DNA of 64,000 nucleotides from an uncultured delta proteobacterium (GCA_963802945.1 CAWDKY010000015.1:475413-539412); one strand, 5' to 3'; positions 33,728 to 44,905 are shown, numbered from the stretch's first letter. Made by a program: numbers and translations. Notes: generated by a model from the sequence alone, not told the origin.

Positions 33728-34810
33728 ATGTCGGATGAGATTTATTACCAGTTGAGGGATATTCTGGACAAGTTTCCCAGGGGATTTCAGCAAACAGAAT
33801 CCGGAGTAGAAATCAAAATCTTAAAGAAACTTTTTTCTGAAGAGGATGCCAGACTGGCGGTTCAACTTTCTACGGCTCCCGAAGAACTCGGGGAGATCGC
33901 CAGCCGCCTGGAAGGGAATATCGATGATCTGAGGCAAAGGCTGGAGGAAATGGCCAATAAGGGATTAATATTCCGACTAAGACGTCAGGGTAAGACTTAC
34001 TATCGGGTCGCCCCCTATGCGATCGGGCTTTACGAATATGCGGTCAAACGGATCGACAAGGAACTGGCTTCCCTTTTTCGGGGATATTATGAGGAATCCT
34101 ATCTCAAGACCCTGGGATTCCATAACATTCCAGGATTCAAAGTCCTTCCGATTGAGCGAGGGATCAAGCCGGATAGCGTACTTCTGCCTTATCAAATGAT
34201 TGAAGAAAGCATTCGGGGGGCAAGAAAGATCGCCGTTGCCGACTGTATGTGTCGTAAAGAGGCCAGACTGCTTGGGGAGTCATGTCAACATCCGATTGAA
34301 AACTGCCTCAGTTTCGGCGCTGCCGCCGAGTATTATATCGAATCAGGGCTTGGCCGTGAAATAACCGCAGACGAAGCGATTAAGATATTAAAAGAGGCCG
34401 ACGACTCAGGGCTGGTTCATGCCGGGGCCAATTCAAAGCATCTTTCCAATATCTGCAATTGCTGCCCCTGCTGCTGCCTGGGGTTAAAGACCCTTACTCA
34501 AAAGGGAAGCTATCGGGAAAGACACTTCAATCCTATCTTTGAGCCCCTGATCGATGCGGATGCCTGTACGGCCTGTGAGGTCTGTGTTGAACGCTGCCCG
34601 GTTAAAGCCATATCCGTGGAAGAATTTGCCAGGGTGGATAGAGATAAATGCCTCGGATGCGGGCTATGCACCGGCCCCTGCCCGGTGGAGGCCATCAGCA
34701 TGATGGTGAGGAAAGACGTTCGGCATCCCTTCGACAACGTGGCCGAACTTGGAGGCGCAGTCCTTAAGGCCAAGGGAAAAGCACCGCTGACCGTCAAGCA
34801 AAAAGGTTGA
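33728..34810 (+). CDS. 4Fe-4S dicluster protein with N-terminal HTH-like domain (paralogue 2 of 3)
   Basis: TESGVEIKILKKLFS, CMCRK, ADDSGLVH, ICNCCPCCC, CTACEVCVERCP, CLGCGLCTGPCP. Confidence 0.88.
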   Translation: MSDEIYYQLRDILDKFPRGFQQTESGVEIKILKKLFSEEDARLAVQLSTAPEELGEIASRLEGNIDDLRQRLEEMANKGLIFRLRRQGKTYYRVAPYAIGLYEYAVKRIDKELASLFRGYYEESYLKTLGFHNIPGFKVLPIERGIKPDSVLLPYQMIEESIRGARKIAVADCMCRKEARLLGESCQHPIENCLSFGAAAEYYIESGLGREITADEAIKILKEADDSGLVHAGANSKHLSNICNCCPCCCLGLKTLTQKGSYRERHFNPIFEPLIDADACTACEVCVERCPVKAISVEEFARVDRDKCLGCGLCTGPCPVEAISMMVRKDVRHPFDNVAELGGAVLKAKGKAPLTVKQKG

Positions 34811-34881: not shown

Positions 34882-34930
34882 AGTGGGATACGGATTATTT
34901 CAAGTTACGAGTGGATGGGGATTTCGATAA
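34882..34930 (+). repeat. Junction repeat family 1, start of module C
   Basis: agtgggatacggattatt...gtggatggggatttcgataa versus agtggggtacgaatcatt...gtggatggggatttcgacaa at 32455. Confidence 0.65.
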
Positions 34931-34932
34931 AC

Positions 34933-35433
34933 TCAATTCCTTCGCTTGGTCCGACCCCCTTTAATCCAAAACTTCCCTTGTGAAAAGGGGAGTCGCGCAT
35001 TGATTTGAAAGGCGATTTCCTCCGGCAGCTTCAATTTTTTAATCATCCGCACACCTGGCCGCCACTGATACCGATTCAAATCAATGGTCCCATCCAGCCT
35101 AAATAAAACTCCTTCTTCTTCCAGCAAAACCCATTGCAATTCCCCGTGGCCAACCTTATAGGTCGAAATCCCGCCGTAATGATTAATGACCCGCTGCCAG
35201 GGCACTACATGCCCATAAAAGAAGAGAACACGCCCTACTTGGCGCGCTGCTCTCGGTGTATCGGCCAGCAAGGCCACCTGCCCATAAGTCAGAACATGTC
35301 CGCGAGGGATGGCCCGTATAATCTCCAACACACGCTGCTGAAAAGAATTTATTGGTCGCTCCTGATTATTTATTTTCGGATGCCGTCTGCCCCGACTTTT
35401 TTTTAGGATAAAAAGTGGGGTGTTTTTTTTCAT
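34933..35433 (-). CDS. Alkyltransferase-like (ATL, MGMT-family) DNA-damage binding protein
   Basis: IPRGHVLTYGQVA, PRAARQVG, and PWQRV in place of catalytic PCHRV. Confidence 0.85.
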   Translation of the reverse strand: MKKNTPLFILKKSRGRRHPKINNQERPINSFQQRVLEIIRAIPRGHVLTYGQVALLADTPRAARQVGRVLFFYGHVVPWQRVINHYGGISTYKVGHGELQWVLLEEEGVLFRLDGTIDLNRYQWRPGVRMIKKLKLPEEIAFQINARLPFSQGKFWIKGGRTKRRN

Positions 35434-36924: not shown

Positions 36925-37432
36925 ATGGATTGGGATTTCGGCGGGTTTTGCGGGGAACGAAATATCGATTAACGCGCGGCAATAATGCTGCGCTTAAAAG
37001 CTTCTTTTTAAGGGTATAAAGATCACTTCAAGTCCAGTTTTCCCCCGCATTTATCAAACAATTTCCTATGAATACTTTTTCTTCGTCTGGTGAGACCCCA
37101 ATCCCTACAAACCCTTATAATTTACAAAATTATAGGCCTGATGTCCTACCCGTTATACCAAGATAAAAGACCTGACCCTCGACCCGCAATCCCTTCGTCC
37201 GATCCGACTCCAATCCCATCTGGGAATCGATATAAGTATTATGTCCCCAGAATTACCAGAATTACAAAAGGGAAGGGAATGATCCGGTTTAGCCGAGGGT
37301 TCAATCAAAAACAACCGGCTCAATGGGAAAAAATAATTTTAGAACCAGCGTCCCATCTTACGCATTTTCCCCCTGCATTTTTCAAACAATTTCCTATGAA
37401 TCCAACCCTTCCGTTAGGTCCGACCCCCAACC
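36925..37432 (+). repeat. Junction repeat family 1, modules C+D followed by B+D
   Basis: 36925-37105 matches 32485-32655; 37266-37360 matches 29893-30005; 37370-37405 repeats module D. Confidence 0.8.
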
Positions 37433-37467
37433 AGACCAATCACAAGCCTACTGAACCGGTAGAACAA

Positions 37468-39729
37468 TTAGGCAGCAAGAAGTAATGAGTCACATTCATG
37501 AAGAAAGAACCAACTATCTGGAAGGGTATAACTAGTTTGTCGTCTGTAACGCGCTGCCAATGCTTCTCGGAGTTTTATAACGACAGGCGCTGCTGTATCT
37601 CGAATAGATTCATAAGATTGGTTGAACTGAGGTGTATCACCTAATTCACCAGAGGCATGCATAATAAGTACATGAGCAATTGGCTCAATAGATGGATGAA
37701 TTACTTCCTGCACTAAGGGAATCACCTCTCGATATTGTTTCTGCTGAATTCGAAGACTCGCAAGAGCTGTTTTGAAGTATGCACAATGAGATACCCAAGG
37801 ACACTCTATTGATCCCCAATCGAAAATATTTTCTGCCTTTTTTAGTTGACCCGAACGCATTTGAGCCATCCCCTTGATATGATAAGCAATCCATTCATTT
37901 TGACTTGCTGGTAAGTTAGTCGGGAGAAGACTCAAGGCGTTTGGGTAATCACCCATAGCCACCAGCACAGATGCCTTTCCATTTCGACCCACCATGCTAC
38001 GAGGGAATTTACTTATAACTAGCTCATATGCCTCCAGTGCCTCCGGTAGTTTTCCTATCTTCCTATAAGTTTCGGCGATACCATGGTATGACCAGGGGCT
38101 CAAAGGGAATTGCATAATAATTTTCTTATACTCATCTAGGGCATCAGTAAAACGTCCTAAATCTCGAAGTATTTTTGCATGTGAAGCCAGTGTATCCGAA
38201 GCCAACGGAAAGCGCTCAACTAAATTAGCGAAAGTCATCTCAGCATCTTCCAGTTTGCCGAGTTCCCGTAAAACTTCTGCACGGGCGTTCTGTGGAATTA
38301 TTTCTTCAGGGTAACTCTCAGCAATCTTACCAAATTCTTCTAAGGCTTCGTTGAGTCGGCCCATGTCTCGTAGCACTTGGGCACGACCACTAGAAGTAAT
38401 TAAATCAAAGGGCTCTTCGCTCAATATTTGGTCATAAGCTTCTAATGCTTCGTTGAGCCTACCGTAAGTTGCCAATGCCGCTGCACGACCATTGCGTGGA
38501 ACAATGTTTTCAGGAAATTCATGCATACACTGCTCATAAATTTGAATTGCTTCTTCTATCTGCCCGAGATCCTTCAATACCTCCGCACGACCATTTAGTG
38601 CCACACAAGCATCTCCAAGCACACCCGCTTCATGGTAAGCATCTTGAGACTTTTGGTACTCAGCAAGCGACCTGTAGGCGTCTCCAAGGGTTGCATATGA
38701 CCAAGAGTCTTTAGGAGCTTCCGCAACAGCTTTTGAAGCAAATTCTAATTGGAGTTCTGGACTACCCAATCTCTTAGCAAATTGTGCCAGATCACATAGA
38801 GATTTGGCTATATGTTCAGGTTCACTAACTCGACGTTGACTAATAATAAGTTCTTCAGAGTATCGCAGCGCTAACTCCTGTTTCCCCTCTTTAAGAAGCT
38901 TTTTAATAGCCTCCTTCTGTTTTTCGACATTCTGAAAAACATCGAAGCTACTTATAGAACGTTTTTTGTATGCATTATCAATTCCACTATTGGTATCATC
39001 GTCAATCTCCTCACTTTCAAAGTCGATATTAGTAATAGATTCTTTGAAAGGAGCAGCCCATGTTTGAAATATCGTTCGAGCTTTACTGCTACCTCGGAAA
39101 TAAGGGTGAGTGAGAAGATCAATGATAGCTAAATTCTTTTTCTGGCGCTGAGTAACGAATAGGCGAAATGCTCCATATCTAACAGCTTGATAATAAAAAT
39201 TTCGTTTGCTAGCTGGATTGCCAAAGAGACTGATTGGTAATGCTTCCCACGCAGCAACCCTTTTTGATATTTCCTCTTGGTCACTCTGAAGTATACTAAG
39301 GAATTGCGTTATATGAGCTAATGATGAATCCGCACTTAGTTGAATTGCACCATTCAAGTCTGCAGTTGAAGGCAATGGCGCTGAATATATGTAGTTCTCG
39401 ACATATCTTCTCACCTCATCTTGATCGAGAGAATCATCCAAGCATTCTGCAGCCTCAAGGCGGGTTTGCGATTCCTCTTCATGATCTAACAGTATTAGAA
39501 TAAGCTGCAGACTTCGGTTCTGTACCCATCCTAATTTCAACTTTTCTAGTACTTCTGATCGCGATGTATTCTCAAGTTGAATGATATCAGTGGCATCGGC
39601 AAATAAGTGAGGTAGTTCCCATTCGTGCCGTAGAGTCCAGGATTCTGGTGAATTCAGACTAATAGAGTACAGCTGTTCAGGCTCTATGCAAACTGCAACA
39701 GCTGATTGCCCTGACAAAATCGCATTCAT
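37468..39729 (-). CDS. 753-aa protein: unknown N-terminal ~260 aa followed by many tandem TPR motifs
   Basis: Repeated NGRAEVLKDLGQIEEA / SGRAQVLRDMGRLNEA / NARAEVLRELGKLEDA units with 34-aa periodicity; ATG overlaps the upstream TGA (ATGA at 39726-39729). Confidence 0.88.
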   Translation of the reverse strand: MNAILSGQSAVAVCIEPEQLYSISLNSPESWTLRHEWELPHLFADATDIIQLENTSRSEVLEKLKLGWVQNRSLQLILILLDHEEESQTRLEAAECLDDSLDQDEVRRYVENYIYSAPLPSTADLNGAIQLSADSSLAHITQFLSILQSDQEEISKRVAAWEALPISLFGNPASKRNFYYQAVRYGAFRLFVTQRQKKNLAIIDLLTHPYFRGSSKARTIFQTWAAPFKESITNIDFESEEIDDDTNSGIDNAYKKRSISSFDVFQNVEKQKEAIKKLLKEGKQELALRYSEELIISQRRVSEPEHIAKSLCDLAQFAKRLGSPELQLEFASKAVAEAPKDSWSYATLGDAYRSLAEYQKSQDAYHEAGVLGDACVALNGRAEVLKDLGQIEEAIQIYEQCMHEFPENIVPRNGRAAALATYGRLNEALEAYDQILSEEPFDLITSSGRAQVLRDMGRLNEALEEFGKIAESYPEEIIPQNARAEVLRELGKLEDAEMTFANLVERFPLASDTLASHAKILRDLGRFTDALDEYKKIIMQFPLSPWSYHGIAETYRKIGKLPEALEAYELVISKFPRSMVGRNGKASVLVAMGDYPNALSLLPTNLPASQNEWIAYHIKGMAQMRSGQLKKAENIFDWGSIECPWVSHCAYFKTALASLRIQQKQYREVIPLVQEVIHPSIEPIAHVLIMHASGELGDTPQFNQSYESIRDTAAPVVIKLREALAARYRRQTSYTLPDSWFFLHECDSLLLAA

Positions 39730-40565
39730 CTGGAAATCACCATTGTGGCACCAATCTCTTTTAACTTCCTAAGAACTGATTTGAGTATGACCTTGTCTTC
39801 TCTTTGGCGCGGCTCAGGCCCGGATAAATGTTCAATTGCGCGACGATGAATTGGGCCATATATGTGTACCTCTATAAAATCGGAATCGGTAGCATCTGAA
39901 TTGGCCAAGAGTCCACTAAAATCAGACCAAGTGGTCATAGGGGTTAGTCGCTTTCCAAGCTTTGCTACTGCCAGTGATCCTCGTTTCATCCAGGGCGCGC
40001 GGTACCCAAAAGGTAATTTATCGCCAGGGACAATTCGATGCCTTTTAATAAACATAGTTGAATTTTCTTCAAATACGGTTGCACGATCCCGTATGGCCAT
40101 CTCCTTTAATACTATACAGTAGTCTCCGTAACCTGAAATGCCGGTACGGTCAATAGATAATGAACCAAAGCGTATATGCTCAGCATAGTACGGAAAGAGC
40201 AAACTATCAACCGCCTGTCTTATTTTATCCCATTCATTATTTTCTGGTATTCGTGCCTCGCAACCTACAGCTTGATAAAAAGTTGCAAAAAGCTGGCTGT
40301 CACTTGAAAGAAACTCATTGATTTTACCGAGAGATCGATTGATAAGCACTGAAGACTGGGCGACAGCACCGTAAAATTCTTTTAAAATACTTTCGTATCC
40401 TCTCAAAGCAGCATTCTCTTCTGCTTCTTTAACTCTAAGTTCGAGTGTACTAACTTCTTCTTTACGAAGTGCCGCACGCACGTTTGGAAATCCAGCATCG
40501 GCTCCACAGACCACACAAAAGCGCACATGCTCAGGTATCTCTTCGTGACAATTGAGACATTTCAT
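39726..40565 (-). CDS. Zinc-ribbon protein with a DUF3626-like (putative ADP-ribosyltransferase-fold) domain
   Basis: N-terminal CLNC-x10-CVVC; motifs IRFGSL, GYGDYCIVLK, DRATVFEENS, DFIEVHIYGPI. The CDS is secure; the family call is tentative. Confidence 0.7.
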   Translation of the reverse strand: MKCLNCHEEIPEHVRFCVVCGADAGFPNVRAALRKEEVSTLELRVKEAEENAALRGYESILKEFYGAVAQSSVLINRSLGKINEFLSSDSQLFATFYQAVGCEARIPENNEWDKIRQAVDSLLFPYYAEHIRFGSLSIDRTGISGYGDYCIVLKEMAIRDRATVFEENSTMFIKRHRIVPGDKLPFGYRAPWMKRGSLAVAKLGKRLTPMTTWSDFSGLLANSDATDSDFIEVHIYGPIHRRAIEHLSGPEPRQREDKVILKSVLRKLKEIGATMVISR

Positions 40566-40927
40566 GGCGTATATCAAGCCTGGTATTGTATTCGGCAACA
40601 GAAATGAATAATACTAAAAAAAATCCCACCTTAAATTCTGATTAGTTACTTGCCACCAACAACCAATAATCAAACTTCAAATTACAATTTCTAAAAATAC
40701 TACACCTATCAGCGGATTTTGTCAAAAAAATATCATCGTTTTAATATATCTTATTGGTGCAACAATTTCTATCTATTTATGTCACTTCGCTTACATGGGC
40801 TCTAATGATATGGGGGTCAAGTCTGCTCCTTACTCTTTCTACCAATTATTCGTTACCGTAAACTTCTCACTATAAAAGAATGAGGACTGATATTAACCGC
40901 GTGAAAAAAAGAATTATCTACTCAGTT

Positions 40928-41093
40928 ATCACTTCAACCGGCAATCAGGCCCGAGATTTCTTAAAAAACGTCCATCGGTTGGTGCCTGCCCTGCAGACCC
41001 GCAGGGGCATGGTCGTTCGTCGAAAAAAAACTTTCAAAGTTCAAAAAGAAAATAAAAGCTCAAAATTAAATCGGAGGACAGCAGTTTAAAAAC
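40928..41093 (+). repeat. Junction repeat family 2, copy 1
   Basis: atcacttcaaccggcaatcaggcccg...cctgccctgcagacccgcaggggc...cagtttaaaaac; near-identical to 41291-41455. Confidence 0.92.
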
Positions 41094-41290
41094 TGAAGAA
41101 TCCGGGGTCAGGTCTATTTTCTTTGCATTCCGCTTTCTGTCGCCCATCCCTCAGCTAAATCCTCAACCCCTTCAAGGCGGGTCCCACCCTAATTGGGTGA
41201 ACTTGAAGTCGCAAATTGCGATCTCAAGTTTCAAACCTTCTTTAATAAAAAATTCTTACCCGTTTTAAAAAAAGAAATGTCTGTTCAGCT

Positions 41291-41455
41291 ATCACTTCAA
41301 CAGGCAATCAGGCCCGAGATTTTTAAAAAACGTCCATCGGTTGGTGCCTGCCCTGCAGACCCGCAGGGGCAGGGTCGTTCGTCGAAAAAAAACTTTCAAA
41401 GTTCAAAAAGAAAATAAAAGCTCAAAATTAAATCGGAGGGCAGCAGTTTAAAAAC
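41291..41455 (+). repeat. Junction repeat family 2, copy 2
   Basis: Direct repeat of 40928-41093 with a few differences. Confidence 0.92.
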
Positions 41456-41458
41456 AAC

Positions 41459-41814
41459 TTATATCGGGAACCCTTTTGCAAATCGTACTTTTGTCTCAGT
41501 AGCAATTACAAACTGGTCAATAATTTGATCAGGATAGGTCTTCAATAATCTTTTAATGGTCTCGATTTTAATAACAGCCCGTTCATCCTCAAGACGCAAC
41601 AGAATAACGCCGTGATGAGGACGCCGATCTCGATTTTTCCTCCAAAATCCTTGTCGTTGGTTATCAAAATCCAACTCTCGACGGAAGCCTTTTGGATAAT
41701 ATCGTCATCACTCATTCCCCGAGCTTCTTCATAGACTGAAAAAACTTCCTATCTTTCATCCCTTAACCATTCAGCCACGGCTGGACCGGTGCATTCGTCT
41801 ATGAGAAAACGCAT
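41459..41814 (-). pseudogene. DUF5615-type PIN-like toxin, inactivated
   Basis: MRFLIDECTG...WLRDER*EVFSV (premature TAG), ILITNDKDFG then a frameshift, HHGVILLRL; downstream of the DUF433 gene. Confidence 0.8.
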
Positions 41815-42063
41815 TTAGGTCATTTCCGCCACCAAGGGCATAAAGGCGGTATCCTCAAGAGATTTGGTAGCGAATAAAATACAGGCTTGAACATCCTCCA
41901 ACATAAGGCCCTTATACTTTTTTATTATTTCATTTGCTGTTGATCCGTGGGCCAGAAGATTCAAAATGTATTCCACTGTCAAACGAGTCCCCTTTATAAC
42001 CGGCTTCCCTACCATAACTTTAGGATCAATGGTTATTCGCTTAAGTAGTTGTTCGTCTTTCAT
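41815..42063 (-). CDS. DUF433-family antitoxin
   Basis: RITIDPKVMVGKPVIKGTRLTVEYIL...EDVQAC. Confidence 0.92.
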   Translation of the reverse strand: MKDEQLLKRITIDPKVMVGKPVIKGTRLTVEYILNLLAHGSTANEIIKKYKGLMLEDVQACILFATKSLEDTAFMPLVAEMT

Positions 42064-42205
42064 GATTTTAATCCCCCGCAAGAGAGGCTATTATTCCTAA
42101 AGCAACTTGTTTCTCTCCATCCATCCGATCGCTTTTAATTTAACTTAATTATTATACTACCTATTTTCAATTTACCCCAACTAAAAAATCTGGTTCTCCT
42201 CCCCA

Positions 42206-42336
42206 ATCACTTCAACCGGCAATTAGGCCCGGAAACCTATATCAACAAGCAAGGAAATGCTGAGGTCTTTAAAAGACGTTTGGCGTTCAGTGCCTGCCAT
42301 GCAGACCCGCAGGGGCAGGGTCGTCCATCGAAAAAC
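42206..42336 (+). repeat. Junction repeat family 2, copy 3 (diverged)
   Basis: atcacttcaaccggcaattaggcccgg ... tgcctgccatgcagacccgcaggggcagggtcgt. Confidence 0.82.
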
Positions 42337-42391
42337 AAAACACTTAAATGAGGTCAGGGTAAACCAAAAAAGTACTTCCTGTTTCGTCAGT

Positions 42392-43446: not shown

Positions 43447-44532
43447 CTAGCCCGTTAAGTCTCCCAGTTCTACGTTGGATGCGCCGGGATCGCCAGGTGC
43501 GGGAATATAATCCGGAGGGCGAACCAGCTTCATTTTACGAGCCTTTCCCGGACAAGTAAGCACACAGAGACCGCACCCGAGGCAATCATCCAATATGGTA
43601 ACAGACTGCTTTTTACCGGATTTCCCATCCTCTTTCAGGCTGATGGCCTTAACGGTGCATCGATCAACGCATGTTCCGCAGCCGAGGCATTTTTCCGGGT
43701 CAAGCTCGACAATAAACCGACTTTTCGCAATGGGCGACTGATTCAAAGTGGGCTTGGTATAGTCGTATATATGAAACATTCCACAACAGCAATTATGGCA
43801 ATGACACATCTGTAAAGGCATACGGTTGGTGTTGTCCGTCAGATTGATCAGAGGATATTCCTCCATTTTGTCAAGGAACTTCATAGCCTCGTCCAAAGTA
43901 ATTTCCCGCCCACTACCGCGCGCCAGCGTAAATTCCCCTAATTTGCCGAAGCTGAGACAAACCTCCCGGGGAAGATCACTTTTGCACTGCCGGCCTCTGT
44001 GAAGGGTTTTACAGGTGCAATTGAATAAGACGATAGGAGGCGCATTCTTCAATATCGTTCGCATCTCTTCATTGGGGAGCACACCGGGTATGTCCTGAAT
44101 GGTTTTCCACTTGGGAACAACTCTCATACCCTGTCTCACATTGACTGCCTCACCTCTGGCCACCCTATCCGCCAGATTCTGGATTTCTTCCCGGCTCATG
44201 GCCATAGCCAGATCAAAATATTGGTCATCGTCAAACTTGGAATCAGCCGATCCCGTCAAATCATGCAGTATGAGCCAACTCGTAACCATTTTCCAGCCGC
44301 GTTTGCCCACGGTAACGACACCTTTTTCTAAAAGTAAATTTAATTGTTTCAAAACCGATTCCTGATCAAGGCCGAGTTTTTTGGCGATTTCTTCCGGCGG
44401 GGACGGGAGCTCGCTCAGTATTTTGGCCTGTTCAAGCGTCACCAGCCTTTGCAGCAATTCCGGTAATACTTTTGATTTCGGCTTTTTCATTCTCGCCGCT
44501 AATTCATGATACACAGGATCTATGGTACTCAT
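43447..44532 (-). CDS. 4Fe-4S dicluster protein with N-terminal HTH-like domain (paralogue 3 of 3)
   Basis: CTCK, MCHCHNCCC, CLGCGTCVDRC, CLGCGLCVLTCP, VRPPDYIP; RBS aaaggag. Confidence 0.85.
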   Translation of the reverse strand: MSTIDPVYHELAARMKKPKSKVLPELLQRLVTLEQAKILSELPSPPEEIAKKLGLDQESVLKQLNLLLEKGVVTVGKRGWKMVTSWLILHDLTGSADSKFDDDQYFDLAMAMSREEIQNLADRVARGEAVNVRQGMRVVPKWKTIQDIPGVLPNEEMRTILKNAPPIVLFNCTCKTLHRGRQCKSDLPREVCLSFGKLGEFTLARGSGREITLDEAMKFLDKMEEYPLINLTDNTNRMPLQMCHCHNCCCGMFHIYDYTKPTLNQSPIAKSRFIVELDPEKCLGCGTCVDRCTVKAISLKEDGKSGKKQSVTILDDCLGCGLCVLTCPGKARKMKLVRPPDYIPAPGDPGASNVELGDLTG

Positions 44533-44810
44533 TTCCTCTCCTTTCGAGTTTTCCTTCATCTGAAAAATGATTATCCGCACCGCCTCCGCAGATTTTCTTC
44601 AATTTTAAAGTATCATTTTATAATAGAGGGAGTCAATTGTCATTAACCATGGCGTTTTGCTGAATCTTCTTGGCAGTCAAGAACTCTAAGGGGTAAAGTC
44701 TGTTCTTGACTCTTTTTCAAATTTTATTCAACTGAAAATATTTTGATAAAAGACTAAATGCTTGCCTGATCAAAAAATAGACTGGCTGCTCGGCTATCCA
44801 TTTAACCGGT

Positions 44811-44905
44811 TAACCGGCAATCAGGCCCGGAAACTTATTTCAACAATCAAAGAAATGATAAAGTCTTGAAAAGACGTTCGGCGTTCAGAGTTCGGCGTTC
44901 GACGA
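44811..44905 (+). repeat. Junction repeat family 2, copy 4 (lacks the internal GC hairpin)
   Basis: aaccggcaatcaggcccggaaac.tat.tcaacaa.caa.gaaatg...aaagacgtt.ggcgttcag matches copy 3. Confidence 0.78.

What the first reader, a model, noticed from the sequence alone, without database searches (positions are those of the whole stretch)
37468..40565. Two-gene island: Zn-ribbon/DUF3626-like putative ADP-ribosyltransferase coupled to a 753-aa TPR protein; candidate undescribed defence system
Seen: the two ORFs overlap by ATGA (39726-39729), which suggests translational coupling. The block is visibly AT-richer than the core genes and sits beside three TA modules between repeat-marked junctions. 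The 279-aa protein has CxxC..CxxC followed by IRFGSL, GYGDYCIVLK, DRATVFEENS and FIEVHIYGPI, which I recall as parallel to the YGAL / G-x5-L / R-x-T-F..DS / IEAQVHG motifs of DUF3626, a proposed ART-like fold. The partner has an unassigned ~260-aa N-domain and a long TPR solenoid. Established: TPR arrays act as phage-protein sensors in Avs and other systems, and NAD-using/ART effectors are common in anti-phage defence. Inference: a TPR sensor/inhibitor plus NAD-dependent effector. I do not recognise this pair as a named system.
Basis: partly seen in the sequence, partly recalled or inferred. Interest (0 to 1): 0.8.

Follow-up and report, generated by a model that had tools for sequence, protein, structure and literature searches.

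The report
SopF-like ADP-ribosyltransferase with docking partner
Two overlapping genes encode an uncharacterised enzyme, shaped like the ADP-ribose-transferring Salmonella protein SopF, and a partner protein predicted to clamp onto it; the pair travels together in many soil and sediment bacteria, but nothing here shows that it defends against phages.

Summary
A 279-aa gene (39726-40565, minus strand) and a 753-aa gene (37468-39729, minus strand) overlap by ATGA in a GC-poor stretch beside toxin-antitoxin genes.

The small protein has an invariant four-Cys zinc ribbon and a confidently modelled ADP-ribosyltransferase (ART) fold. Its closest solved structure is SopF, a DUF3626 protein (Z 14.3), followed by OspC3/CopC, Tpt1 and DarT. 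Pfam's DUF3626 model does not detect it. Glu232, His234 and Arg161 are kept in 135-136 of 136 relatives.

The large protein has a roughly 230-aa N-domain with no solved look-alike, a disordered linker and a TPR array. That N-domain lies directly downstream of the ART gene in 65 of 68 genome loci and 68 of 68 testable metagenome loci. No other neighbour recurs. A complex is predicted (ipSAE 0.87, best control 0.01).

The partner's C-terminal part is interchangeable. It is TPR in 77 of 95, but also sigma-54 activator, receiver, radical SAM, sugar transferase or ribosomal protein S2.

The cassette is rare and patchy. It matches no PADLOC system, and defence-island enrichment was not shown.

Best reading: a two-subunit ART whose partner docks and directs or gates it. 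Anti-phage defence remains a rival.

The parts
39726..40565 (-). Gene A, 279 aa: zinc ribbon plus ADP-ribosyltransferase-fold protein (stop codon 39726-39728)
   Evidence: ORF. AF2 model has pLDDT 92.9 and pTM 0.89. SopF is the best structural match, Z 14.3 and Foldseek E 5.6e-6.
40497..40565 (-). Zinc ribbon, residues 1-23 (Cys3, Cys6, Cys17, Cys20)
   Evidence: Pfam Zn_Ribbon_1, E 1.3e-5. Cys17 and Cys20 are kept in 136/136, Cys6 in 135/136 and Cys3 in 129/136, the other 7 being 6 gaps and one Ser.
40470..40487 (-). Conserved PNVRAA motif after the ribbon, residues 27-32
   Evidence: Asn28 136/136, Pro27 128/136, Arg30 124/136. Its role is unknown.
39729..40358 (-). ART-fold core, about residues 70-279
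   Evidence: VIA alignments to DarT and Tpt1 start at model residues 58-70 and run to 278-279; the SopF alignment spans 11-278.
40167..40169 (-). Phe133, the candidate nicotinamide-stacking aromatic residue (middle position of the triad)
   Evidence: Phe in 105 and Tyr in 19 of 136. It aligns with the Tyr of KYGAL in DUF3626 (weak). CopC has Phe at this triad position and SopF has Tyr (PMC9239266; PMC10333799).
40071..40085 (-). R-A-T-V-F strand, residues 161-165
   Evidence: Arg161 136/136; residue 163 is Thr or Ser in 136/136. It aligns with R[ST]TF of DUF3626.
39864..39872 (-). Glu232-Val233-His234, the putative catalytic Glu in an E-x-H motif
   Evidence: Glu232 136/136 and His234 135/136. 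It lies on a predicted strand at 232-236. Glu326 and His328 are essential in OspC3, and Glu325 in CopC (PMC9239266, passages).
39726..39729 (-). ATGA overlap between the stop of A and the start of B
   Evidence: Read directly. In one search, 35 of 62 related loci with a called downstream ORF have it starting 1 or 4 nt inside A (gap -4 in 25, -1 in 10).
37468..39729 (-). Gene B, 753 aa: docking N-domain, linker, TPR array and C-terminal cap
   Evidence: ORF. Pfam finds TPR families only, between about residues 330 and 640.
39034..39729 (-). B N-domain, residues 1-232: five N-terminal strands followed by helices; no Pfam family
   Evidence: AF2 pLDDT 91. No solved look-alike: Foldseek best E 0.28; the best VIA Z, 6.7, covers only 42 residues of the TPR start. 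It lies directly after A in 65/68 and 68/68 loci. It is predicted to bind A.
38965..39033 (-). Disordered linker, residues 233-255
   Evidence: pLDDT below 50 over residues 233-255. The region is poorly conserved and gap-rich in alignment A2.
37810..38949 (-). TPR array, about residues 261-640
   Evidence: Pfam TPR_2 2e-23, TPR_14 3.6e-22, TPR_1 2.2e-21. Helices start at residue 261 in the model.
37471..37809 (-). C-terminal region after the TPR array, residues 641-753
   Evidence: tblastn finds it in 19 of 68 genome loci. It has no Pfam family.
40697..40725 (-). Promoter-like site, TTGACA-17-TAGTAT, about 130 nt upstream of A
   Evidence: 10 of 12 consensus positions. The number of such sites in the region is no higher than in shuffles, so this is position-based only.

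Best explanation
The operon encodes a two-subunit, NAD+-using ADP-ribosyltransferase. Subunit A is the enzyme: an N-terminal zinc ribbon followed by a SopF/OspC-like ART domain with a strictly kept Glu-x-His, an aromatic residue at position 133 and Arg161. Subunit B is made by translational coupling. Its own N-terminal domain, a fold with no solved relative, docks onto helices 79-101 and 255-266 of A and onto the rim of A's catalytic cleft. A flexible linker then carries a C-terminal module that is interchangeable in evolution. Here and in about four fifths of relatives that module is a TPR array; elsewhere it is a sigma-54 activator, a receiver domain, a radical-SAM enzyme, a sugar transferase or ribosomal protein S2. 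I read B as the docking subunit that directs or gates the enzyme. The TPR would hold a client protein in trans, much as the ankyrin domain of OspC3/CopC holds caspases in cis, and the fused modules of the variants would be clients in cis. The cassette is accessory and moves horizontally. Shown here: the fold, the residue conservation, the strict gene linkage, the variable C-terminal modules and the patchy distribution. Predicted: the complex. Inferred: catalysis, the kind of target, and that B directs rather than only inhibits.
For: ART fold. The AF2 model has pLDDT 92.9. VIA-align against 48,161 chains gave 9 with Z>=8, all of them ART-fold, NAD-using enzymes: SopF Z 14.3 (rmsd 3.7, 224 aligned), OspC3 11.2 and 10.5 (two entries), CopC 10.9, Tpt1 9.0, and four DarT/DarTG chains at 8.7-8.8. 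The next hit, CteC, scores 5.2. Foldseek ranks SopF first, E 5.6e-6.

Catalytic residues. Glu232 136/136, His234 135/136, Arg161 136/136, and Phe or Tyr at 133 in 124/136. These parallel the H-F-E triad of CopC, the essential Glu326 and His328 of OspC3 (PMC9239266, passages) and the I-Y-E triad of SopF (review PMC10333799, passages).

Linkage. A profile of the B N-domain hits directly downstream on the same strand in 65 of 68 genome loci; the 3 misses have a truncated A. It also hits in 68 of 68 metagenome loci that have at least 400 nt downstream. Among all neighbouring ORFs, only A (60 loci) and B (53 loci) recur; the next cluster occurs in 6 loci.

Complex. ipSAE 0.87, 0.87 and 0.88 in three runs, against 0.01 for the best of 3 controls. 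That mark was reached by 58 of 80 solved complexes and 2 of 110 mismatched pairs, but these counts hold only roughly because my own alignments were used. The runs agree in at least 80% of contacts, and partner pLDDT is 87-88. The interface on A covers residues 75-103, 110-119, 132-133, 143-148, 168-171, 174, 227-228 and 252-266. The B N-domain has no solved look-alike, so the pass is unlikely to come from a memorised complex.

Modularity. Of 95 complete B frames, 77 are TPR, 3 sigma-54 AAA+ (one with HTH_8), 2 receiver, and 1 each sugar transferase, radical SAM and full-length ribosomal protein S2. Three have a C-terminal part with no Pfam match, 6 are N-domain only and 1 was not tested. The S2 fusion is one 510-aa ORF in a finished Rhizobium plasmid. 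Non-TPR forms are scattered in the leaf order of the A tree.

Accessory status. Found in 1 of 21 genomes of the window's own order and 3 of 121 in another family.
Against: No biochemical evidence exists: no activity, target or phenotype is known for any member, and the sources name the homologues only as hypothetical or zinc-ribbon proteins. The link to SopF is structural. Sequence profiles find no solved relative (best E 0.39), and hhalign against DUF3626 is not significant. The complex is a model. Its interface touches Phe133, Gly147, Asn168 and the loop before Glu232, which fits an inhibitor as well as a director. Most non-TPR architectures are each seen in one locus, and all but the Rhizobium plasmid fusion come from MAG or metagenome contigs. 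The 2 receiver cases probably come from one population. Fusions could be by-products of deletions rather than functional designs. Six partners lack any C-terminal module, so that module is not essential for whatever the core pair does. The low GC, the TA neighbours in the window and the patchy spread suit a conflict system as well.
Confidence: 0.55

Rival explanations
1. Anti-phage defence or a toxin-antitoxin-like abortive system. A is a toxic ART held inactive by the B N-domain. The TPR array senses a phage protein and releases or activates A, which then ADP-ribosylates an essential host or phage component.
For: The cassette is a self-contained two-gene unit in variable neighbourhoods. It is patchy among close relatives, and some genomes carry two copies. 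In the window it lies in a GC-poor stretch with TA genes and dispersed repeats. Among 148 neighbouring ORFs there are 4 phage-type integrases, one DDE transposase and a few defence-like hits: DrmD 5e-33, a type IV restriction enzyme 8e-27 and mad3 6e-27. The predicted interface reaches the rim of the catalytic cleft. Related ART folds act in conflict: DarT and phage proteins including a DUF3626 protein appear among the fold matches. Gene order with the enzyme first is, from my recall, the same as in darT-darG.
Against: No PADLOC model matches A, and B gives only generic TPR hits. Most of the 148 neighbours are ordinary metabolic or regulatory genes. No defence family recurs in more than 2 of them, and no background rate was measured. 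There is no match in 50,697 phage records, and one distant match in 72,556 plasmid records. B has no NTPase, macrodomain or other known antitoxin or sensor module. Variants with a sigma-54 activator, radical SAM, sugar transferase or ribosomal S2 in place of TPR are hard to read as phage sensors.
Confidence: 0.27
2. A writer-receiver signalling pair. The B N-domain is itself the substrate of A, so ADP-ribosylation would play the part that phosphorylation plays in two-component systems. It would switch the attached output: TPR scaffold, sigma-54 activator, enzyme or ribosomal protein.
For: In L055, L048 and L111 the B N-domain sits where sigma-54 activators, by my recall of their usual layout, carry their regulatory input domain, ahead of the AAA+ domain (with HTH_8 in L055). 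The partner's most conserved stretch is its N-terminus, M-x-A-x-x-S-G, with Ser6 invariant in 37 sequences. Residues 2, 4 and 8-15 touch A in the model. The pairing is strictly one to one.
Against: No acceptor residue has been identified. Ser6 itself is not among the low-error contacts, and neither are Glu232 and His234. The interface is large (151-168 contacts), which looks more like a stable complex than an enzyme-substrate encounter. In the receiver variants the receiver domain lies C-terminal to the N-domain, which does not fit a simple input-output order. No ADP-ribosylhydrolase gene recurs beside the pair.
Confidence: 0.13
3. A is not a transferase. It could be an NAD+ glycohydrolase, an RNA 2'-phosphotransferase-like enzyme, or an inactive scaffold whose conserved residues serve only to bind.
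For: The ART fold also serves Tpt1, which scores Z 9.0 over 108 residues. The zinc ribbon could bind nucleic acid; one source's automatic name for a homologue is 'predicted nucleic acid-binding Zn ribbon protein'. CopC shows substrate-free NAD+ hydrolysis (PMC9239266, passage).
Against: The best and longest matches are protein ADP-ribosyltransferases. The Glu-x-His motif and the aromatic residue are kept as in the active enzymes. The Tpt1 match covers only part of the model.
Confidence: 0.05

Closest known systems
SopF of Salmonella (Pfam DUF3626; PDB 7DN8, 7DN9)
   Same: It is the best structural match over nearly the whole protein: Z 14.3, 224 residues aligned, model 11-278, and Foldseek E 5.6e-6. 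Four motifs fall in the same order as in DUF3626. A catalytic Glu lies on the matching strand, and an aromatic residue occupies the middle triad position. SopF depends on a bound partner protein, an ARF GTPase (PMC10333799, passages).
   Different: Identity is 12%. The Pfam DUF3626 model does not detect A or its relatives. A has a zinc ribbon and is not a secreted effector. Its partner is encoded next to it and is a bacterial protein of unknown fold. The target is unknown, whereas SopF modifies Gln124 of the host V-ATPase subunit ATP6V0C.
OspC3 (Shigella) and CopC (Chromobacterium) ADP-riboxanases
   Same: ART-like domain with Z 10.5-11.2. The E-x-H motif corresponds to Glu326 and His328 of OspC3. 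CopC has Phe in the triad, as A does. A repeat domain recognises the substrate, and a bound protein (calmodulin) activates the enzyme (PMC9239266, passages).
   Different: In those enzymes the repeat domain is ankyrin and is fused in cis. Here it is TPR and sits on a separate subunit that docks through a dedicated domain. The two Asp residues needed for riboxanation were not mapped. Those enzymes are eukaryote-directed effectors.
DarT-DarG toxin-antitoxin and defence system
   Same: ART fold (Z 8.7-8.8). It is a two-gene cassette and, from my recall, the enzyme gene comes first. It has an accessory distribution.
   Different: B has no macrodomain or NADAR domain, so the modification would not be reversed enzymatically. 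The PADLOC search gave A no hit at all. B is roughly 750 aa with TPR repeats.
TPR-bearing immune sensors such as Avs/STAND proteins
   Same: A long TPR solenoid is linked to an effector activity.
   Different: B has no STAND or other NTPase domain. The effector is a separate protein. In 18 of 95 relatives the TPR is replaced or absent.

Membership tests
Pfam DUF3626 (PF12294), the SopF family | Match to the family HMM at or above its gathering score of 27 bits | tested here: not met
   No DUF3626 hit for A at E<=1. There were no hits at E<=0.01 in 5 genomes that carry A homologues. The same search does find true members, 4 of 401 genomes.
Pfam DUF3626 (PF12294), the SopF family | SopF-like ART fold | tested here: met
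   7dn9_A: Z 14.3, rmsd 3.7, 224 aligned. Foldseek E 5.6e-6, TM 0.60. A phage DUF3626 protein is also among the BFVD matches, E 2.4e-7.
Pfam DUF3626 (PF12294), the SopF family | Motif series KYGAL ... PRFGSSYF.L ... R[ST]TF ... IEAQ[IV]HG | tested here: inconclusive
   hhalign places IRFGSL, YGDYCIVLK, RATVF and FIEVHIYG in register with these motifs, but probability is 1.8% and E 0.028, and the template has only 4 sequences. The ESM Atlas lists a cluster in which 15% of members carry DUF3626, at score 0.85, which is a lead only.
OspC family ADP-riboxanases | Catalytic Glu with His two residues later (OspC3 Glu326 and His328) | tested here: met
   Glu232 136/136 and His234 135/136. Equivalence to the OspC3 residues rests on fold similarity and motif position, not on a residue-level superposition.
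OspC family ADP-riboxanases | C-terminal ankyrin-repeat substrate-binding domain on the same chain | tested here: not met
   A ends with the ART domain at residue 279. No longer fused forms were found among 5,315 candidates, which is weak evidence.
OspC family ADP-riboxanases | Two acidic residues needed for arginine riboxanation (CopC Asp172 and Asp230) | not tested
   No residue-level superposition was available. Asp113 and Asp229 are conserved (113 and 125 of 136), but their positions in space were not compared.
DarTG | Partner with a macrodomain or NADAR ADP-ribosylglycohydrolase | tested here: not met
   Pfam finds only TPR families in B. The N-domain has no solved look-alike.
Named anti-phage systems in PADLOC-DB v2.0.0 | Match of the component proteins to a system's HMMs | tested here: not met
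   A matched 0 families. B matched 4 weak, generic hits, the best being 'TPR' at 5.1e-6. DefenseFinder and later PADLOC releases were not available.
STAND/Avs-type TPR sensors | P-loop STAND NTPase domain between the effector and the TPR | tested here: not met
   No NTPase family is found in B by Pfam or NCBIfam.
Type II toxin-antitoxin pair | The toxin is neutralised by direct binding of the adjacent gene product | tested here: inconclusive
   Binding is predicted (ipSAE 0.87 against a best control of 0.01; that mark was reached by 58 of 80 solved complexes and 2 of 110 mismatched pairs). Toxicity and neutralisation cannot be tested with these tools.

The most novel reading that the evidence does not exclude
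A previously undescribed signalling or targeting principle in bacteria: a zinc-ribbon, SopF-like ADP-ribosyltransferase 'writer' with a dedicated docking or receiver domain that evolution has plugged onto interchangeable modules (TPR scaffolds, sigma-54 transcription activators, receiver domains, radical-SAM and sugar-transferase enzymes, even ribosomal protein S2). ADP-ribosylation would then be aimed at, or would switch, a chosen cellular machine. The family would also mark the environmental source from which the SopF/OspC type of pathogen effector was drawn.
Probability: 0.3. Interest if true: 0.85.

Novelty: new variant of a known kind. Interest (0 to 1): 0.68.

Why it matters
SopF and the OspC family are known only as effectors that pathogens inject into animal cells. 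This work finds a large, unnamed sister family inside free-living bacteria: 1,218 cluster representatives at E<=0.001 and 437 at E<=1e-30. Every member examined has an obligate partner of unknown fold.

If the pair is active, it offers three things. The first is a new bacterial ADP-ribosylation system with a built-in handle for finding its targets, because the fused variants name candidate targets: the ribosome, sigma-54 transcription and envelope sugar transfer. The second is a test of whether partner-dependent activation, as with ARF for SopF and calmodulin for OspC3/CopC, is ancestral to this branch of the fold. The third, if the defence reading is right, is a new effector-sensor design.

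Six literature searches found no description of the pair.

Tried and rejected
Sequence routes to a named family all failed for A. Pfam gave only the zinc ribbon. NCBIfam and PADLOC gave nothing. A profile of 41 homologues against all PDB sequences gave nothing better than E 0.39.

Fold searches for the B N-domain gave no convincing match. Foldseek found 0 matches at E<=0.001. VIA-align found no chain with Z>=8; the top rows cover only the 42-residue TPR hairpin, and the helical part 65-150 gave HEAT/ARM-like rows at Z 5.4-5.9. This does not prove the fold is new.

A search for longer, fused forms of A found none among 5,315 candidates, which is weak evidence. A word-based search with B residues 1-235 reached only 33 close relatives, all with TPR, so it could not show whether the N-domain ever occurs without A.

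A scan of metagenome contigs with the B N-domain alignment was not possible because no stretch was conserved enough. I scanned with the A alignment instead.

For expression, no RNA holder was listed for the stretch, and two DNA runs held only 6-7% of its words.

Earlier notes of this scan held nothing for this place or sequence. No tRNA gene lies within 25000-55000, so a tRNA-site island is not indicated.

I rejected a secreted polymorphic toxin with immunity protein. A begins with a zinc ribbon, not a secretion or Rhs-type domain, and none of the 25 Pfam families listed for the 148 neighbours (145 families matched) is a secretion-system component apart from Por_Secre_tail in 2.

Defence-island enrichment could not be settled. 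The PADLOC hits among neighbours are mostly generic domains, and I had no matched background set.


Full report
**1. The observation**

Both reading frames are present on the minus strand as described. A lies at 39726-40565 and is 279 aa from the ATG. B lies at 37468-39729 and is 753 aa. A TTG at 40598 would add 11 residues to A, but the homologues aligned begin at M-x-C, so the ATG is the likely start. The sequence around the junction reads AGATGAATG, so A's stop and B's start share ATGA at 39726-39729.

The pair has 42.5% GC against 48.2% for the window. That places it in the lowest 5% of 3.1-kb windows.

The neighbouring small genes are toxin-antitoxin types:
- DUF433, next to two overlapping ORFs, one of which gives a weak DUF5615 match.
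- Phd/YefM with a PIN toxin.
- A weak HicB-like fragment.

Dispersed repeats mark the intergenic junctions. A 200-nt query from one of them has 13 matches in the 4.37-Mb genome. A promoter-like TTGACA-17-TAGTAT lies about 130 nt upstream of A, but such sites are no more frequent here than in shuffled sequence.

**2. Protein A**

Pfam sees only a zinc ribbon at residues 2-23 (E 1.3e-5). It sees no DUF3626. NCBIfam and PADLOC see nothing.

The family is large and unnamed:
- 306 proteins at E<=0.001 in the word-indexed search, named by their sources only as hypothetical or zinc-ribbon proteins.
- 1,218 cluster representatives at E<=0.001, 980 at E<=1e-10 and 437 at E<=1e-30 in the exhaustive search.

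An AlphaFold2 model built on 41 homologues is confident, with pLDDT 92.9 and pTM 0.89.

Against 48,161 solved chains, 9 reach Z>=8. All are NAD-using ART-fold enzymes:

| Chain | Z | rmsd (Å) | Aligned residues |
|---|---|---|---|
| SopF | 14.3 | 3.7 | 224 (model 11-278) |
| OspC3 | 11.2 | 5.5 | 218 |
| CopC | 10.9 | 5.1 | 216 |
| OspC3 (MBP fusion, 7wr3) | 10.5 | 5.9 | 211 |
| Tpt1 | 9.0 | 2.5 | 108 |
| Four DarT/DarTG chains | 8.7-8.8 | 3.8-4.1 | 165-177 |

The next hit, CteC, scores 5.2. Foldseek agrees: the SopF entries score E 5.6e-6 and 7.1e-6, and only these two pass E<=0.001.

In the viral structure library, 16 proteins pass E<=0.001. They include large phage proteins and one annotated DUF3626 protein.

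**3. Relation to DUF3626**

SopF carries Pfam DUF3626 at residues 178-338 (PMC6682159, passages). I fetched four natural DUF3626 proteins from 4 of 401 sampled Pseudomonadota genomes.

Profile-profile comparison puts A's IRFGSL, YGDYCIVLK, RATVF and FIEVHIYG in register with these motifs. However, it gives probability 1.8% and E 0.028. The Pfam model finds nothing in five genomes that do carry A homologues. The ESM Atlas places a cluster partly annotated as DUF3626 at score 0.85.

So A is a structural relative of DUF3626/SopF and probably a remote homologue. It is not a member by the family's own test.

**4. Catalytic residues**

Conservation was counted over 136 sequences, the window plus 135 from fetched loci:
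- Glu232, Arg161, Arg116, Gly147, Gly187, Trp192, Asn28 and Glu37 are invariant.
- His234 is kept in 135.
- Residue 133 is Phe in 105 and Tyr in 19.
- Residue 163 is always Thr or Ser.
- The four Cys are kept except where the start is missing.

CopC has a His-Phe-Glu triad, and only the Glu is indispensable there. OspC3 needs Glu326 and His328 (PMC9239266, passages). SopF has an Ile-Tyr-Glu triad and needs a bound ARF GTPase (review PMC10333799, passages).

The pattern in A fits an active enzyme of this branch. Residue equivalence rests on motif order and fold, because I had no residue-level superposition.

**5. Protein B**

Pfam finds only TPR families, between about residues 330 and 640. The first roughly 230 residues form a family of their own. 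Its conserved features are an N-terminus M-x-A-x-x-S-G (Ser6 invariant in 37 sequences), then DRALxLxLILLD, AAECL, NRLYSAPLP and Q..I...AWD.LP..LFG.

The model has pLDDT 91. It shows five N-terminal strands, helices to residue 225, a disordered linker at 233-255, and then TPR helices.

No solved structure resembles the N-domain. Foldseek's best E is 0.28. VIA-align finds no Z>=8, and its top rows cover only the TPR hairpin.

**6. Linkage**

Among 68 loci from species-representative genomes, a profile of the B N-domain hits directly downstream of A on the same strand in 65. The 3 misses (L043, L065, L068) have a truncated A.

Among 80 metagenome loci, 68 have at least 400 nt downstream of A, and all 68 carry the N-domain there. 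Both IMG/VR contigs and the one plasmid hit also carry it. Starts overlapping A's stop by 4 or 1 nt are the commonest arrangement, in 35 of the 62 loci where called a downstream ORF.

Clustering all neighbouring ORFs shows that only A (60 loci) and B (53 loci) recur. The next cluster is in 6 loci. The unit is therefore exactly these two genes.

**7. Predicted complex**

A with B residues 1-240 scored ipSAE 0.87, 0.87 and 0.88. The best of three controls scored 0.01. That mark was reached by 58 of 80 solved complexes and 2 of 110 mismatched pairs, though these counts hold only roughly because my own alignments were used. The runs share at least 80% of contacts, and partner pLDDT is 87-88.

The tightest contacts join A's C-terminal helix (255-263) and helix 79-86 to B helices 69-96. 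The B N-terminal sheet and loop 35-49 touch A 132-133, 143-148, 168-171 and 227-228, which is the rim of the presumed NAD+ cleft. Glu232 and His234 themselves are not among the low-error contacts.

This supports a stable heterodimer. It does not show one, and it leaves open whether B blocks, opens or aims the active site.

**8. The partner's C-terminal module varies**

Of 95 complete B frames with a near-full N-domain, 72 have a TPR region like the window's. Of the other 23, 20 were scanned with Pfam:

| C-terminal module | Loci |
|---|---|
| Other TPR types | L027, L119, L121, L124, L128 |
| Sigma-54 AAA+ | L048, L055 (with HTH_8), L111 |
| Receiver domain | L026, L129 (probably one population) |
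| CoA-binding plus bacterial sugar transferase | L037 |
| Radical SAM | L144 |
| Full-length ribosomal protein S2 | L078 |
| 240-280 residues with no Pfam match | L036, L117, L147 |
| No Pfam family, N-domain only | L040, L046, L047, L064 |

L049, L125 and L150 were not scanned. L049 and L150 are N-domain only by their length, and L125 resembles L119.

The S2 case is a single 510-aa ORF that overlaps the end of the A homologue in the finished plasmid pRL9b4 of Rhizobium leguminosarum. The record annotates only the rpsB part. In L046 the short B is followed by a separate 958-aa ORF with TPR and Sel1 repeats.

In a FastTree of 136 A sequences, the non-TPR forms are scattered through the leaf order. 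Branch support was not assessed. Leaves labelled 'tpr' include incomplete frames whose architecture was not verified.

**9. Distribution and context**

- The A profile hits only the window's genome among 21 genomes of its order: 0 of 13 in the same genus and 0 of 7 in other genera.
- It hits 3 of 121 genomes in the family of Methylobacterium longum.
- Two genomes carry two copies.
- Carriers span Nitrospirota, Acidobacteriota, Alpha- and Deltaproteobacteria, Planctomycetota, Zixibacteria, Gemmatimonadota and others, going by record titles.
- There is no match in 50,697 phage records, one distant match in 72,556 plasmid records, and two IMG/VR contigs.

I annotated the 148 ORFs nearest the pair in L001-L042. 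These were taken from the 239 ORFs listed as the up-to-two nearest ORFs of at least 110 aa on each side of the pair across all loci. Pfam shows a broad mix of metabolic and regulatory genes, with phage integrase in 4 and a DDE transposase in 1. PADLOC models hit a scatter of families, each in 1-2 ORFs. Many hits are generic, such as radical SAM scoring as pVip and sigma-54 activators scoring as RtcR. A few look real: DrmD, a type IV restriction enzyme and mad3. Without a background set I cannot call this enrichment.

**10. Interpretation**

Well supported:
- A is an ART-fold protein of the SopF/OspC branch, with catalytic residues under strict conservation.
- A is always encoded with a partner whose N-domain is predicted to bind it.
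- The cassette is accessory and moves horizontally.

Open: the role of B and the biological use. I favour B as a docking subunit that directs or gates the enzyme, for two reasons. Its C-terminal part behaves as an exchangeable module that includes enzymes, a transcription activator and a ribosomal protein. The nearest characterised enzymes also use a repeat domain for substrate capture and a bound protein for activation.

The defence reading remains possible. It explains the patchiness, the TA-rich and GC-poor setting in this window, and an interface close to the active site. It explains the non-TPR variants poorly, and no context statistics support it so far.

A bolder reading has the N-domain as a receiver that is itself ADP-ribosylated. 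The sigma-54 variants suggest this, but no acceptor site supports it.

**11. Novelty**

PADLOC v2 holds no system matching A. Six full-text searches found no description. The two papers I checked for this by passage search (PMC9503650 and the DefensePredictor preprint) do not mention such a pair in the passages shown. Supplementary tables were closed, so candidate lists there could not be checked.

I classify it as a new variant of a known kind. The ART fold and the two-gene cassette are known. The sequence family, the docking domain and the modular partner are not.

Noticed in passing
L078:8818-10350 (Rhizobium leguminosarum plasmid pRL9b4, record positions about 447222-448754): A single 510-aa ORF joins the partner's docking domain to a full-length ribosomal protein S2 (Pfam Ribosomal_S2, positions 1-216 of 216, E 1.4e-96). 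It lies directly after a distant homologue of the ART gene. The record annotates only the rpsB part.
   Followed up: partly
L051:8077-8502: In a Pseudomonadota MAG, a short partner (N-domain only) is followed about 450 nt downstream by a ribosomal protein S12 gene. With the S2 fusion this makes two small-subunit ribosomal genes next to variant pairs. It may be chance.
   Followed up: no
window 40893-41093, 41256-41455, 42171-42338, 44812-44888: A dispersed intergenic repeat containing a G+C-rich hairpin (GCCTGCCCTGCAGACCCGCAGGGGCAGGG). Two near-identical 200-nt copies lie 362 nt apart. A 200-nt query has 13 matches in the genome, and a core of about 50 nt occurs on seven other contigs.
   Followed up: partly
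window 37035-37111, 37363-37439, 34922-34959: A second short repeat family lies in the spacer downstream of gene B and again after the MGMT-like gene. The 131-aa ORF called at 37090-37485 on the plus strand lies within this repeat region and is probably not a gene.
   Followed up: no
window 41459-41715: Two overlapping minus-strand ORFs of 57 and 71 aa lie next to an intact DUF433 gene (41815-42081). Only the 57-aa ORF gives a match, a weak one to DUF5615 (E 1.7e-4, profile positions 35-60 of 110). The toxin gene of this pair looks frameshifted.
   Followed up: partly
window 33728-34810 (+) and 43447-44580 (-): Two distantly related 4Fe-4S proteins (28% identity, E 2e-32) flank the GC-poor stretch in opposite orientation. 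Their 3' parts form a 61-nt inverted repeat that is 72% complementary (34643-34703 and 43635-43695).
   Followed up: partly
window 34933-35433 (-): A 166-aa protein has only the DNA-binding domain of O6-methylguanine methyltransferases (PF01035, E 6.7e-21). Whether the active-site Cys is present was not checked.
   Followed up: no
L046:7445-10321: Where the partner is reduced to the docking domain, the next ORF (958 aa) carries TPR and Sel1 repeats and a weak AAA_31/VirC1-type P-loop match. This may be a split or three-gene form of the system.
   Followed up: no
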